Source of the DNA: Nitrososphaeria archaeon
GTDB taxonomy: Archaea > Thermoproteota > Nitrososphaeria > JACIWG01
Assembly (NCBI GenBank): GCA_963752255.1
Contig: CAVVXT010000014.1
Span: 1 to 64,000 of the forward strand
DNA: 64,000 nucleotides
Direction: 5' to 3'
Both the position numbers and the translations under genes were made by a program. This document shows positions 2,504 to 64,000 of the stretch, piece after piece (the first letter of the stretch is position 1; each line of letters starts with the position of its first letter). The notes beneath the pieces are model-generated. The model saw only the letters and a program-made list of their open reading frames with translations. It had not been told where the DNA came from and made no database searches.

Positions 2504-3112
2504 ATTTAACAAAAAAGCATCAAGTGTTTCATCTAATACAGGACCATCTAAAGAGAATGAGTGTCCTGTAGACCCTGTTGGTGTAGAAATGATTAAACCA
2601 TCCATTCTTTTTTTTATGAGAAGTTCCTTCTGCGCTATAGTGAACAGAGGCAGCTCCGTCAACGATCCCCTGTATAAAAGTACCTCATTAAGGGCGGTTA
2701 ATTTTTTACCATGGTCACCGACGTCAAGTTTAAGCATCATATGCTCTTGAACGTGAAACCTATCCCTTTTTATTGAATCGATTGCCAAATCTATTTCATC
2801 AGGAAATATTTCCGTTAGGACGCCCTTTGAGCCGACGTTTATTCCTAGGATGGGGATCTGTTTTGATAAACTTCTAATCACACCTATTATCGTGCCGTCT
2901 CCACCTAAAATGCATAGAAGATCTGTATTAGATTGATTCACATCTTCTATATTTAGACTATTTGTTGATTGATATTTTATTGGTGTTATCGTATTTACGT
3001 GAAAATTATTCTTCTTGAAGGACTCGATGATGAACTTTGTCACCCTGTGTTGGTTTATCTTTTTGATATTTCCTGCGATCGCGATCCTGTTTATTGCGGT
3101 CAAATGTGCCAA
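2504..3112 (-). CDS. nadK: NAD(+) kinase (C-terminus lost at the contig junction)
   Basis: LGGDGT, GINVG, ALNE and DGLIISTPTGSTGHSFS motifs. Confidence 0.9.
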
Positions 3113-13820: not shown

Positions 13821-14113
13821 TGAACATACGCCGGTGGACAGATTACGGAAGAAATCCTGTGGAAACTCCTTCCTCCGAGTAAAAGCGTGGCGCTGAGAAG
13901 CGCAGCGGTAGACCGTTGGCAACGGAACAGAAACGACACCAACCTAGACGCATGACGATGATAGATATTTGAGAAGGTCTAGCAATTGGGTTAAACGGCC
14001 GACCCACGCGGAGCAAGACCAAATAGGGCAATGTGCATTTACTCAAAGCCCAGGTAGGTCGCATAGTCTAATACTGTCAAAACAGAAGAAGGGTTACAGC
14101 CGGCTTATGTTCA
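13821..14113 (+). ncRNA. rnpB: RNase P RNA
   Basis: Terminal helix TGAACATA.GCCGG / CCGGC.TATGTTCA; conserved GGAAACTCC, ACAGAAAC, GGAGCAAG and AACAGAA..GGGTTA elements. Confidence 0.92.
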
Positions 14114-23138: not shown

Positions 23139-23735
23139 TTAGATGCGACGTTTTAACCTTTCGGAAACAGCTTTCCAAATTAAATTATGAACAGCGTTTA
23201 TCGACAGATTTCCGTCTACAATGACCCACTTGTTTTCACTTGCTAATTTAATAAAACACCTTCTTACGCGTGCCAAATATTCCAGATCTTTCTCATGAAT
23301 GTCACGATCATGCTCCTTCCTTCTAAAGGAAACATTAGGTTGAAGATCCAAAACTATCGTTAAATTTGTACGGGGCAAATGCGAATCTAAACTTTTTAAC
23401 CATTGAATAGGAAGATTGTTGGCTAATCCATAAGCCCAATTCGATTGATAATACCTATCAAACACAATTGTATATCCTTGTTCAATTAATTCTTCAATCT
23501 TAGGTTTTAACTCCCACCTATTAGCTGACAATAACATATGTTTCACTTCTAAAGGTACTTGAATTTCATTTGATAATATTCTCTTAATTAGTTTGCCAAC
23601 AGGTGTCTTGTAATCTGGAAAGGACATTTTAGTTGCGTTAACGCCGTTTTCCTTTAGCTTTAAAACTAGTAATTCTGTTTGAGTCTTTTTCCCAGATTGG
23701 TCTATTCCTTCTATTGCAATTAGCGGCGGAATCAC
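23139..23735 (-). CDS. tmk: Thymidylate kinase
   Basis: IEGIDQSGKKTQ, SANRWE and DRYYQS. Confidence 0.95.
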   Translation of the reverse strand: MIPPLIAIEGIDQSGKKTQTELLVLKLKENGVNATKMSFPDYKTPVGKLIKRILSNEIQVPLEVKHMLLSANRWELKPKIEELIEQGYTIVFDRYYQSNWAYGLANNLPIQWLKSLDSHLPRTNLTIVLDLQPNVSFRRKEHDRDIHEKDLEYLARVRRCFIKLASENKWVIVDGNLSINAVHNLIWKAVSERLKRRI

Positions 23736-23790
23736 ACATCAATATATTAAAGATAGACTTAAAAAATGATGCCATTATTGGTATAAACAT

Positions 23791-24923
23791 ATGAAAAGGA
23801 TAGGGTTCATAGTGAATCCCATAGCCGGGCTAGACTGAAATAAGGGCCAAGCGGCGTTTTGGGATTAAAAGGAACCGATAATCTGGAAATAATAGAATTA
23901 GCAATGGTAGAAAAGGTTCCGCAGATAGCCCAGAAAAGAGCCTTCGAATTTGCCGAGAAGATTGCGACGCTTAGAAAAAATGATTTCTTTTTCTATACTT
24001 CTAACTCTAAAATGGGTGAAGATTATTTACGGAACAAAGGAATTAATTTTGAAGTAGCCTATGAATATAAAGGTAAGTTTAGCACAAGTAGAGATACTGA
24101 GAAGCTTTGTGAAAAGCTTATGACAGTTCGTGTTGAAGCAATATTTTTTGTAGGAGGAGATGGCACTGCCTGTGACATCTTTCGGGTAATAGGAAATAAG
24201 GTGCCTCTTATAGGAATACCTGCCGGAGTTAAAATGTACAGCGGCATATTTTGTACTACAGTCAATACTTCAGTCAAAGCTCTCTCCAATTTTTTGGAAG
24301 GATCTTACGAATTATGCGAAGAAGAAATAATTGATATAAATGAGGAAGACTATAGAAAGGATGAATTTAATCTTAAAGTATATGGTTATGCTTCGACTTT
24401 AAAAGAATCGGAGAATATCCAAGGATCGAAATCAGATTATTATGGACAGGACAAGGATAATCAAGAAAGGATTGCAAAGTACTTTACAGAAAATATGGAG
24501 AAAGAAACTTACTACATATTGGGACCCGGAACTACAGTTAAGGCAATACCAAAAATGCTTAATCAACCGTATACGCTCTTAGGTGTCGATATACTTCTCG
24601 AAGGAAAGGTGATTGCACGAGATGTTGATGAAAAACACATCTTAAACATTACTAAAGGAAGGAATGTAAAACTTGTTCTAAGCCCCTTAGGTGGACAGGG
24701 GATAATACTAGGCCGAGGCAACCAGCAAATCTCCTCAAAAGTGTTGCGAAGAATTAAAAGGCATGACTTGATATTACTAGCAACAGAAAAAAAACTAAAA
24801 GGTTTACGGAGGAATTATCTAATTGCTGATATTGATGATAGTTTTGTTCGAAAAATATTTGGGGGATATGTACGGGTATTGGTAGATTATAACATAGAAA
24901 GGGTTCTGAAATTAATCTATTAA
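23791..24923 (+). CDS. ATP-NAD/AcoX kinase-family protein, interrupted by a 17-nt BHB intron (exons 23791-23833 and 23851-24923; 371 aa spliced)
   Basis: Spliced N-terminus [46 protein letters not shown] and GRGNQQ. Confidence 0.9.
23834..23850 (+). other. Predicted archaeal pre-mRNA intron with a canonical bulge-helix-bulge motif
   Basis: GCCG-GGCT-AG^A-CT(GAAATA)AG-GGCC-AA^G-CGGC; excision restores the frame and the motif. Confidence 0.88.
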
Positions 24924-35051: not shown

Positions 35052-35150
35052 CGCCGGGGAAGGGACTTGAACCCTTGAAACGGTAGAGCCGTTACCGGCT
35101 ATCTTGTTGGATCTCGAGGCCGGCCCTTTCGACCACTCAGGCACCCCGGC
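35052..35150 (-). tRNA. tRNA-Ser (CGA) with a 12-nt intron at 37/38 (35101-35112)
   Basis: CCGGC-CTCGAG^ATCCAACAAGAT^A-GCCGG, relaxed BHB; long variable arm. Confidence 0.92.
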
Positions 35151-59479: not shown

Positions 59480-60983
<1,504 letters not shown>

Positions 60984-61129
60984 TTGAACGTTGGTTAACT
61001 GACGAGTAGCATGATTAACGCCTTAGATGCAATTCGTGATCTAGACGATCATGGATGAAGGACATAGAGGGCTATATTCCCTCAATGATTGTCGTGCATA
61101 GTTGCGACAGCCAGAATAGTATTCCTGAT

Positions 61130-64000
<2,871 letters not shown>

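What the first reader, a model, noticed from the sequence alone, without database searches (positions are those of the whole stretch)
23791..23870. Candidate BHB-spliced mRNA intron in an ATP-NAD/AcoX kinase-family gene
Seen: the ATG at 23791 reads [15 protein letters not shown] and stops at TGA 23836. The rest of the gene continues in another frame. Removing exactly ACTGAAATAAGGGCCAA (23834-23850) gives [16 protein letters not shown], matching the family pattern NPIAG(M/L)GG.xGLKG.D. The insert folds as a canonical BHB: outer helix GCCG(23824-27)/CGGC(23852-55), central 4-bp helix GGCT/GGCC, 3-nt bulges AG^A and AA^G, and intron hairpin CT-GAAATA-AG. A further exon-exon helix AATCCCA(23815-21)/TGGGATT(23860-66) supports it. 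Cutting after the second bulge nucleotide, as EndA does, gives precisely the frame-restoring boundaries. Known: EndA processes tRNA and rRNA introns, and the well-characterised archaeal mRNA case is cbf5 in Crenarchaeota. Inference: this metabolic gene needs the tRNA-splicing machinery to be expressed, possibly as a regulatory switch. Gene callers would simply truncate the protein. A structured 17-nt insert is unlike the 1-nt errors elsewhere in the contig.
Basis: partly seen in the sequence, partly recalled or inferred. Interest (0 to 1): 0.93.

Follow-up and report, generated by a model that had tools for sequence, protein, structure and literature searches.

The report
Spliced mini-intron in archaeal kinase gene
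A 17-base structured insert that splits an NAD-kinase-family gene in a soil archaeon looks like an intron removed by the tRNA-splicing enzymes, a kind of interruption reported so far for only two archaeal messenger RNAs.

Summary
A 17-nt insert (23834-23850) breaks an NAD-kinase-family gene after codon 14. The lowest-energy fold is a canonical helix-bulge-helix-bulge-helix (BHB). Cutting two bases into each bulge restores the frame.

This is neither an error nor a pseudogene. Seven distinct related sequences carry an insert at the same codon: 4 species genomes and 3 distinct metagenome sequences on 4 contigs. Insert lengths are 16, 17 or 18 nt. The BHB core pairs in every sequence, two pairs show compensatory changes, and exon 1 changes mostly synonymously. 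Forty-five other orthologs are uninterrupted.

The genome encodes two EndA paralogs and RtcB. It holds tRNA mini-introns of the same build (tRNA-Pro 16 nt, tRNA-His 18 nt).

A genome-wide scan found a second case. The single-copy aEF-2 gene has a 31-nt BHB insert after codon 21. All 8 genomes of the order that I examined have it (26-32 nt). Twenty genomes of other families in the class lack it.

The best reading is a real EndA/RtcB-spliced mRNA intron in a Nitrososphaeria order. Splicing is inferred, because no RNA data were available. It is a new member of a known but very rare kind (cbf5; HVO_1309 5'UTR).

The parts
23749..23770 (+). Conserved A/T-rich box with a TATA-like run (23758-23766) about 29 nt upstream of the ATG. 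Putative promoter of a leaderless or short-leader mRNA.
   Evidence: Read directly. The same box sits upstream of exon 1 in all intron-bearing loci. The promoter function is inferred, not tested.
23791..23833 (+). Exon 1: 14 codons ([14 protein letters not shown]) plus the first base of the junction Gly codon.
   Evidence: Codon differences from the window's copy are mostly synonymous: 2-6 synonymous against 0-3 conservative replacements per sequence.
23834..23850 (+). 17-nt BHB intron. It holds the in-frame TGA at 23836-38.
23851..23923 (+). Start of exon 2 (exon 2 runs on to the stop at 24921-24923). The spliced CDS is join(23791..23833, 23851..24923), 371 aa.
   Evidence: Pfam PF01513 and PF20143 on 23853-24920.
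23924..24923 (+). Remainder of exon 2 up to and including the stop codon.
23815..23821 (+). 5' strand of the additional exon-exon helix. It pairs with 23860-23866.
   Evidence: It is paired in 95.9% of cells across 7 sequences.
23824..23831 (+). 5' strands of the outer helix (23824-27) and of the central 4-bp helix (23828-31). Both are exonic.
   Evidence: 100% of cells paired.
23832..23834 (+). Bulge 1 (AGA). The predicted 5' cut lies between 23833 and 23834.
   Evidence: The cut register was validated on tRNA introns of this genome.
23835..23844 (+). Intron hairpin: a 2-bp helix with a 6-nt loop.
   Evidence: The tRNA-Pro 16-nt intron of this genome has the same build.
23845..23848 (+). 3' strand of the central helix (intronic).
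   Evidence: Pair 24/41 of alignment A1 changes C-G to U-A in 2 sequences.
23849..23851 (+). Bulge 2 (AAG). The predicted 3' cut lies between 23850 and 23851.
23852..23855 (+). 3' strand of the outer helix (exon 2).
23860..23866 (+). 3' strand of the additional exon-exon helix.

Best explanation
The 17 nt at 23834-23850 are a bulge-helix-bulge intron inside the coding sequence of an NAD-kinase-family gene of a Nitrososphaeria archaeon.

Proposed mechanism:
1. The pre-mRNA folds so that exon 1 codons 12-14 and the first bases of exon 2 form the outer helix. Exon 1 and the 3' end of the intron form the central 4-bp helix.
2. The splicing endonuclease cuts two bases into each 3-nt bulge, at 23833|23834 and 23850|23851. 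The genome has two EndA paralogs, which I infer form the (alpha-beta)2 type.
3. RtcB joins the exons.
4. The mature mRNA encodes a 371-aa protein with the family's N-terminal NPxAGxGG motif intact. The unspliced RNA encodes only a 15-aa peptide.

What is shown: the structure, the exact frame restoration, conservation with length variation and compensatory changes, purifying selection on both exons, the presence of the enzymes, and the same cut register in this genome's tRNAs.

What is inferred: cleavage and ligation of this RNA in the cell, the endonuclease subunit type, and the promoter.

The intron arose once, in the ancestor of the clade holding genera g1, g3 and g4. An older BHB intron in aEF-2 shows that mRNA splicing is a trait of the whole order.
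For: **Geometry.** The MFE equals the centroid and equals a canonical hBHBh'.

**Frame.** Removal by the EndA register restores ...NPIAGL | [10 protein letters not shown].

**Comparative evidence.**
- Of 17 ortholog loci from 41 related genomes, 4 carry an insert at the same codon and 13 read NPIAGMGG without a break. The four are G000 17 nt, G001 17 nt, G004 18 nt with an in-frame TAA, and G003 16 nt.
- Of 8 further loci, 6 carry it: L029 and L030, which are identical to G001, and L031-L034 with 16 or 17 nt. Two do not.
- All 30 loci from a phylum sample are uninterrupted.
- The three insert lengths put exon 1 in all three frame relations to exon 2. The same BHB rule mends every one.

**Structure counts on 7 distinct sequences.**
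- 98.3% of 119 cells pair, and the three BHB helices pair in 100% of cells.
- Two pairs change on both sides.
- Sliding the 3' partners drops pairing to 28.6-59.7%.

**Selection.**
- Exon 2 stays open for 356 codons at 55-96% identity.
- Exon 1 differs from the window's copy by 2-6 synonymous and 0-3 conservative codons.

**Phylogeny.** The 7 intron rows form one side of a branch with 100/100 support in a 21-row tree.

**Machinery.** Two tRNA_int_endo genes and one RtcB gene are present.

**Controls in the same genome.**
- The same register gives ARAGORN's intron boundaries for tRNA-Met, tRNA-Tyr and tRNA-Pro (3 of 8 intron-bearing tRNAs).
- Removing 18 nt from the T-arm by this register yields the genome's only tRNA-His.

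**Second mRNA case.** aEF-2 has a 31-nt BHB insert after codon 21. Its fold has z = -4.67, with 0 of 200 shuffles as good. An insert of 26-32 nt is present in 8 of 8 examined genomes of the order. It is not found in 20 loci of other families.

**Databases.** All 13 closest protein clusters (54 listed members) are truncated at 355 aa or less. Of the other 107 listed clusters, 97 have the N-terminal motif.
Against: - The spliced junction has not been observed. All support is structural and comparative.
- Thermodynamic stability is ordinary: z = -2.29 for 63 nt and z = -0.79 for the 36-nt core.
- Covariation is thin. Only 2 of 17 pairs change on both sides. The sequences are related, and 7 of 500 shuffles reach the observed covariation score.
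- Most BHB positions are exonic, so they are also constrained by coding.
- The inner helix has only 2 bp.
- The strict motif at ARAGORN's boundaries was found for only 3 of 8 intron-bearing tRNAs, so my motif does not describe all of this organism's substrates.
- A TTG at 23859 could in principle start a 354-aa protein, and every gene caller chose that start.
- The gene is one of three NAD-kinase-family genes in the genome, so it need not be essential.
Confidence: 0.85

Rival explanations
1. There are two separate products and no ligation. Exon 1 is a 15-aa leader peptide. The kinase starts at TTG 23859 and is 354 aa. The BHB-like fold is a regulatory structure or an EndA-triggered decay site rather than an intron.
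For: A TTG is present at this position in all 7 distinct sequences. All database gene calls use this start or a later one. Eukaryotic TSEN is reported to cleave some mRNAs for decay without ligation (passages of PMC10485636).
Against: - Exon 1 encodes exactly the family's conserved N-terminus. The NPxAGxG motif is present in 97 of 107 more distant clusters and in all 45 uninterrupted loci.
- Exon 1 evolves mainly by synonymous change.
- The BHB cut sites restore the motif to the residue in all three frame configurations.
- The TTG is also part of the exon-exon helix, so its conservation is explained without a start role.
Confidence: 0.08
2. Translational recoding. Ribosomes shift frame or hop over the insert, as in phage T4 gene 60 (recalled), so no RNA splicing is needed.
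For: A stop codon lies just after the break, and a hairpin follows it. This is superficially like a bypass site.
Against: - Inserts of 16, 17 and 18 nt would each need a different shift. The 18-nt form would need stop read-through plus six extra residues.
- A GGG-to-GGG hop is possible in the window's copy. It gives residues unlike the family motif, and the landing triplet is out of frame in G004. I read this.
- The conserved features are the helices and 3-nt bulges, not take-off and landing codons.
Confidence: 0.03
3. Pseudogene, or a sequencing or assembly artefact.
For: The window's genome is a 19-contig assembly. At least one plain frameshift exists elsewhere in it (a hisB-like gene). One metagenome copy (L034) has a frameshift near its 3' end.
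Against: - The insert recurs at the same codon in independent assemblies with different lengths and sequences.
- 356-codon frames stay open at 55-96% identity in a genome of about 36% G+C.
- Fifty-four database members from many assemblies share the truncation point.
Confidence: 0.02

Closest known systems
cbf5 pre-mRNA BHB intron of Crenarchaeota (Watanabe 2002; Yokobori 2009, PMC2738675, abstract start and passages seen)
   Same: It is an intron inside a protein-coding sequence. It is defined by a BHB-like fold at the exon-intron junctions. It is cut by the tRNA splicing endonuclease and the exons are ligated. It occurs in lineages with a two-subunit endonuclease and is patchy in phylogeny (gain and loss).
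   Different: The gene differs (NAD-kinase family, plus aEF-2) and so does the lineage (Nitrososphaeria). cbf5 in this genome is uninterrupted, with a 346-aa open frame. Yokobori's table lists no cbf5 intron for Cenarchaeum or Nitrosopumilus. The BHB here is strict, whereas the cbf5 motif is described as 'more relaxed' (PMC10485636 passage). The intron here is very short (16-18 nt) and lies 14 codons from the start. The cbf5 splice is shown by experiment; this one is predicted.
HVO_1309 5'UTR BHB intron of Haloferax volcanii (Schwarz 2020, PMC7714728, passages seen)
   Same: It is an mRNA substrate of the archaeal splicing endonuclease with a BHB motif.
   Different: It lies in the 5' UTR and is 46 nt long. 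It does not interrupt a reading frame. It is processed by a homodimeric enzyme and was found by circRNA-seq. Here the intron breaks the CDS, so splicing is obligatory for the full-length protein.
Archaeal tRNA mini-introns, including non-canonical positions. In this genome: tRNA-Pro 16 nt, tRNA-His 18 nt in the T-arm, tRNA-Met 32 nt, tRNA-Tyr 45 nt.
   Same: The hBHBh' geometry and cut register are identical. The size range is the same. tRNA-Pro has the same 2-bp inner helix.
   Different: The host RNA is an mRNA. The exon halves of the motif must also encode conserved amino acids (Ala-Gly-Leu-Gly-Gly).
IRE1/RtcB unconventional splicing of HAC1/XBP1 mRNA in eukaryotes (mentioned in passages of PMC13149111; details recalled)
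   Same: A short intron is removed from an mRNA without the spliceosome, by a protein endonuclease and an RtcB-type ligase. Removal changes the reading frame of the product.
   Different: The endonuclease (IRE1) and its recognition motif are different. That system is a stress-regulated switch. No regulation is shown here.

Membership tests
Archaeal BHB (splicing-endonuclease) intron | Two 3-nt bulges on opposite strands, separated by a 4-bp helix | tested here: met
   MFE and centroid fold. The central helix is paired in 100% of cells in 7 sequences.
Archaeal BHB (splicing-endonuclease) intron | Flanking helices on both sides (h and h') | tested here: met
   There is a 4-bp outer helix plus a 7-bp further helix, and a 2-bp inner helix. 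The inner helix is short, but it equals that of this genome's tRNA-Pro intron.
Archaeal BHB (splicing-endonuclease) intron | Cuts at the symmetric bulge positions give a functional product | tested here: met
   The frame and the conserved motif are restored in 7 of 7 distinct sequences with inserts of 16, 17 or 18 nt. The register was checked on tRNA-Met, Tyr, Pro and His. The rule 'cut after the second bulge base' is itself recalled.
Archaeal BHB (splicing-endonuclease) intron | Structure kept in evolution by compensatory change | tested here: met
   Two pairs change on both sides. Pairing is 98.3%, against at most 59.7% when the 3' partners are slid. The support is modest, since 7 of 500 shuffles reach the covariation score.
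Archaeal BHB (splicing-endonuclease) intron | Splicing endonuclease and RNA ligase are encoded by the organism | tested here: met
   PF01974 scores 100.5 and 80.5 bits at two loci. RtcB PF01139 scores 563.9 bits. The ORFs are 182 and 180 aa. The alpha/beta assignment was made by eye and is an inference.
Archaeal BHB (splicing-endonuclease) intron | Excision and exon ligation observed in RNA, or cleavage shown in vitro | not testable with these tools
See Tried and rejected.
NAD kinase family (Pfam PF01513 and PF20143; database names 'ATP-NAD kinase family protein') | Both Pfam domains score above the curated cut-offs | tested here: met
   PF01513 scores 64 bits (cut-off 25.5) and PF20143 scores 35 bits (cut-off 23.7). 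The NCBIfam NAD kinase equivalogs score only about 25 bits against cut-offs above 300. So it is a family member, not a proven NAD kinase.
NAD kinase family (Pfam PF01513 and PF20143; database names 'ATP-NAD kinase family protein') | The subfamily's N-terminal NPxAGxGG...GLKG motif | tested here: met
   It is met only after removal of the 17 nt. The motif is present in 97 of 107 more distant clusters and in 45 uninterrupted loci.
NAD kinase family (Pfam PF01513 and PF20143; database names 'ATP-NAD kinase family protein') | Kinase activity and substrate | not testable with these tools
   The substrate is unknown. Two other family members are in the genome.

The most novel reading that the evidence does not exclude
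In this order of Nitrososphaeria, obligatory EndA/RtcB splicing of mRNAs is a standing part of gene expression rather than a one-off. It covers at least the single-copy elongation factor aEF-2 and an NAD-kinase-family gene. Both introns sit 14-21 codons from the start of what look like leaderless or short-leader messages. The BHB must therefore form and be cut before the first ribosome melts it. On this reading the introns act as a kinetic checkpoint. They tie the output of a translation factor and of a nucleotide-cofactor enzyme to the cell's tRNA-splicing capacity.
Probability: 0.2. Interest if true: 0.9.

Novelty: new member of a known kind. Interest (0 to 1): 0.8.

Why it matters
- The searchable literature reports only two archaeal mRNAs as splicing-endonuclease substrates: the cbf5 coding sequence in some Crenarchaeota and the HVO_1309 5'UTR in Haloferax. 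[quoted passage not shown]
- This finding adds two well-supported candidates in a different major lineage. One of them, aEF-2, is a single-copy core translation factor.
- The introns can be as short as 16-18 nt and can sit inside a conserved protein motif.
- There is a practical consequence for annotation. Every public gene call I saw for this kinase clade is N-terminally truncated (54 of 54 listed members). The aEF-2 genes of the order are presumably mis-called as well.
- The two introns give a concrete system for asking how splicing and coupled translation coexist in archaea.

Tried and rejected
**RNA evidence.** The look-up of sequencing runs (kind rna) on 23700-24923 listed no RNA holder ('no RNA holder listed'). 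Read laying was therefore not used. This is no evidence either way.

**cbf5.** It is uninterrupted in this genome.

**MFE filter.** Using 'the BHB must be the MFE structure' to filter candidates was too strict. It kept 2 of 250 and lost aEF-2. I replaced it with base-pair probabilities.

**Other scan candidates.** I read 18 of the 147 strict-scan survivors (17 chosen with L ≤ 60, plus the finding as control). I also read the top 40 of the 250 relaxed-scan survivors. These were rejected:
- EF-1alpha (C1:32194-32204) and GlmS (C12:113439-113457) have normal starts.
- uL14/uL24, an ABC permease/ATPase pair and others are adjacent genes.
- A hisB-like gene (C3, about 140831-140871) is a plain frameshift with overlapping frames.
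- Strong BHB-like hits inside long intact ORFs, such as C19:371151-371172, would break the frame if removed.

The 129 strict and 210 relaxed survivors that I did not read may hold further cases. Relaxed (hBH or HBh') motifs were not scanned.

**Ribosomal bypass or frameshift.** Considered and rejected; see the rival explanations.

**'MGG' clusters.** Eight protein clusters start exactly at MGG.VGLKGTD (P0017, P0035, P0057, P0065, P0074, P0080, P0098, P0106). They might mark another interruption at the same site in another lineage. Cluster look-up gave no taxon. All 30 loci from a 401-genome phylum sample were uninterrupted. This is left unexplained; start-codon miscalls are an equally good reading.

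**aEF-2 core.** It shows no covariation because it is invariant. Support there rests on length and frame variation and on the differing inner hairpins.

**Not run.** No structure prediction was run, so the role of the exon-1 strand is argued from conservation only.

**Literature.** The claim that no NAD-kinase, aEF-2 or Thaumarchaeota mRNA BHB intron is in print rests on searches. It holds only for the library held here. Supplementary files of papers were not consulted and could list predicted mRNA introns.
Full report
**What is there.** The window comes from a 2.1-Mb, 19-contig archaeal genome of about 36% G+C. Its same-genus relative is deposited as a Nitrososphaeria MAG. At 23791 an ATG opens a 15-codon frame, [15 protein letters not shown], that ends at TGA 23836. 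From 23853 another frame runs 356 codons to the stop at 24921-24923. That frame matches Pfam NAD_kinase (64 bits) and NAD_kinase_C (35 bits). It scores far below the NCBIfam NAD kinase equivalogs. It is therefore an NAD-kinase-family protein of unproven substrate. Two other family members are in the genome. Neighbours are a thymidylate kinase and an HD-domain gene upstream on the other strand, and an STT3/AglB gene downstream.

- a 7-bp helix, 23815-21/23860-66
- a 4-bp outer helix, 23824-27/23852-55
- a 4-bp central helix, 23828-31/23845-48
- 3-nt bulges at 23832-34 and 23849-51
- a 2-bp hairpin with a 6-nt loop.

Cutting after the second base of each bulge removes 23834-23850. It joins ...NPIAGL to [10 protein letters not shown]... 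through a rebuilt Gly codon. The spliced CDS is join(23791..23833, 23851..24923), 371 aa.

Folding energy alone is not special: z = -2.29, and z = -0.79 for the core. The geometry is rare. Among 2,655 strict-motif hits on both strands of the genome, 4 have at least 7 G-C core pairs and an intron of 30 nt or less, and this is one of them.

**Is the cut register right for this organism?** ARAGORN finds 46 tRNAs, 8 of them with introns of 12-56 nt. It returns ARAGORN's exact boundaries for tRNA-Met (32 nt), tRNA-Tyr (45 nt) and tRNA-Pro (16 nt). The other 5 do not fit the strict motif at those boundaries. ARAGORN found no tRNA-His. A strong BHB hit at C19:608500-608517 lies in a tRNA-like sequence. 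Removing those 18 nt by the same register yields a canonical tRNA-His(GTG). So this cell must cut strict BHBs with 16-18-nt introns, including at non-canonical positions. The genome encodes two tRNA_int_endo proteins of 182 and 180 aa, and RtcB. By eye, one EndA paralog keeps the catalytic His and Lys motifs and the other lacks the His. That fits the (alpha-beta)2 type. An abstract start I saw (PMC5829648) says this type is one of the two that cleave non-canonical introns. The subunit assignment is my inference.

**Comparative test.**
- Searching 41 related genomes with the exon-2 protein gave 17 full orthologous loci.
- Four loci carry an insert at the same codon. All four are from the window's family: G000 17 nt, G001 17 nt with two base changes, G004 18 nt, G003 16 nt. 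Thirteen read NPIAGMGG without a break.
- Metagenome and genome-collection scans added L029 and L030 (identical to G001). They also added four contigs at 78-79% protein identity with inserts of 16 or 17 nt, and two distant uninterrupted loci.
- Thirty further loci from a 401-genome phylum sample are all uninterrupted.
- The three insert lengths place exon 1 in all three frame relations to exon 2. The 18-nt form is in frame but carries a TAA. The BHB rule mends each one. A sequencing error, a decaying pseudogene or a fixed ribosomal frameshift would not produce this pattern.

**Structure and selection.**
- On the alignment of 8 loci (7 distinct), 98.3% of 119 cells pair, and the three BHB helices pair in 100% of cells.
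- The central-helix pair C-G becomes U-A in two sequences, and an inner-helix pair also changes on both sides.
- Sliding the 3' partners drops pairing to 28.6-59.7%.
- The covariation is modest and the sequences are related (7 of 500 shuffles reach the score), so I treat it as supporting evidence, not decisive.
- Exon 1 differs from the window's copy by 2-6 synonymous codons and 0-3 conservative replacements (K/R, I/L, I/M).
- Exon 2 stays open for 356 codons at 55-96% identity. One exception is L034, which has a late frameshift in an A-run.
- A conserved A/T-rich box with a TATA-like run lies about 29 nt upstream of the exon-1 ATG in all intron-bearing loci. This points to the ATG at 23791 as the true start of a leaderless or short-leader message. 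That is an inference.
- In a 21-row protein tree the 7 intron-bearing rows form one side of a 100/100 branch, which is consistent with a single gain.

**Databases.** In the 5.8-billion-protein collection the 13 closest clusters (55-100% identity) are 303-355 aa. They begin at or after the Leu of GLKGTD. All 54 listed members are 355 aa or shorter, and none is about 371 aa. Of the other 107 listed clusters (43% identity or less), 97 carry NPxAGxG within the first 60 residues.

**A second mRNA intron.**
- I filtered the BHB hits for those whose removal joins broken frames: 147 of 2,655 in the strict scan, and 250 of 17,295 in a relaxed scan of introns of 80 nt or less. I then read junction peptides.
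- One further convincing case appeared, at G000 C19:563956-563986 on the minus strand. A 31-nt insert lies between ...GNKDQIR and NLGVVAHVDHGKT..., the N-terminus and P-loop of aEF-2.
- The site folds as a 5-bp outer helix, a central helix UUCG/CGAA, bulges AAA and UUA, an inner hairpin and a further 8-bp helix. The energy is -27.6 kcal/mol, z = -4.67, with 0 of 200 shuffles as good.
- G000 has one aEF-2 match.
- All 8 genomes of the order whose N-terminus I could read carry an insert at that codon, of 31, 31, 30, 26, 32, 31, 31 and 30 nt. The frame relations differ and so do the inner hairpins, each of which folds. The order is the same set of 10 genomes as the family. G008 was not readable upstream of an intein-like insertion. 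G005 gave no match.
- Twenty loci from other families of the class read DQIRN(F/I)G without a break.
- The BHB core is invariant, so it shows no covariation.
- This independent case makes mRNA splicing hard to avoid as an explanation. It shows that the kinase intron, limited to the g1/g3/g4 clade, is the younger of two.

**How it most likely works.** The pre-mRNA folds into the BHB as soon as about 76 nt are made. The two-subunit endonuclease cuts both bulges. By established EndA chemistry (recalled) this leaves a 2',3'-cyclic phosphate and a 5'-OH. RtcB joins the exons. Unspliced RNA yields only a 15-aa peptide. Both introns lie 14-21 codons from the start, so a translating ribosome would unwind the 5' strand of the motif. 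Splicing must therefore win a race with the first ribosome. Whether the cell uses this as a control point is open, and I give it about 0.2.

**Compared with what is known.**
- Passages of PMC7714728, PMC2738675 and PMC10485636 state that the known endonuclease-spliced archaeal mRNAs are cbf5 (coding sequence, some Crenarchaeota) and HVO_1309 (5'UTR, Haloferax). They add that other cases had been predicted but not confirmed, and that more probably exist.
- Eight full-text searches found no report of such introns in NAD-kinase-family genes, in aEF-2 or in Thaumarchaeota/Nitrososphaeria mRNAs.
- The finding is therefore a new member of a known, very rare kind. The mechanism and motif are the same. 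The genes and the lineage are new, the BHB is strict, the size is minimal, and the position is 5'-proximal.

**Verdict.** My confidence that this is a real spliced intron is 0.85. The missing piece is direct RNA or biochemical evidence.

Noticed in passing
G000 C19:563956-563986, minus strand (L041:2457-2487): A 31-nt textbook BHB insert lies in the single-copy aEF-2 gene after codon 21, just upstream of the P-loop. An insert of 26-32 nt is present in 8 of 8 examined genomes of the order. It is not found in 20 loci of other families of the class.
   Followed up: yes
G000 C19:608443-608533, plus strand (intron 608500-608517): A tRNA-His(GTG) gene carries an 18-nt BHB intron in the T-arm. ARAGORN misses it. 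It is the genome's only tRNA-His once the intron is removed.
   Followed up: yes
window 35052-35150, minus strand: A tRNA-Ser(CGA) gene carries a 12-nt intron. The first ARAGORN run missed it. Rfam and ARAGORN with introns enabled found it. Its junctions do not fit the strict BHB at ARAGORN's boundaries.
   Followed up: partly
L049 (G008), L053 (G035), L054 (G010) and G036 C6:1216322-1217488: These aEF-2 genes have open frames of 1324-1372 aa, with a large in-frame insertion in the P-loop. In the three loci read (L049, L053, L054) it ends ...GIIVHN followed by T, which looks like an intein. Calling it an intein rests on a recalled motif. G036 was judged from its open-frame length only.
   Followed up: no
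proteins P0017, P0035, P0057, P0065, P0074, P0080, P0098, P0106: Eight clusters of the same kinase family (about 40% identity) begin exactly at the Met of the AG-M-GG motif. They could mark another interruption at the same site in another lineage, or start-codon miscalls. No taxon or DNA could be obtained.
   Followed up: partly
G000 C3, about 140831-140871, minus strand: An imidazoleglycerol-phosphate-dehydratase-like (hisB) gene is split into two overlapping frames. This is a plain frameshift (assembly error or decay), not a BHB intron. The gene name was read by eye from the peptide.
   Followed up: partly
L034 (metagenome contig), codon 315 of the kinase gene: This copy has a frameshift in an A-run near the 3' end. 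It also has a Gly-to-Arg change in GLKG that breaks one pair of the exon-exon helix. It may be an error-prone assembly or a decaying copy.
   Followed up: no
window 2762-3001, minus strand; G000 C12:171169-171303: Two further NAD_kinase (PF01513) matches have open frames of 251 and 345 aa. The intron-bearing gene is therefore not the only family member.
   Followed up: no
window 13826-14108 and 59480-64000: Archaeal RNase P RNA lies at 13826-14108. A 16S-23S rRNA operon runs off the window end. That explains the G+C rise at 60001-64000.
   Followed up: no
protein P0145 (member of the P0008 cluster): One member of an intron-clade kinase cluster is deposited under a bacterial MAG name (Brevinematia). 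This is probably a binning error.
   Followed up: no
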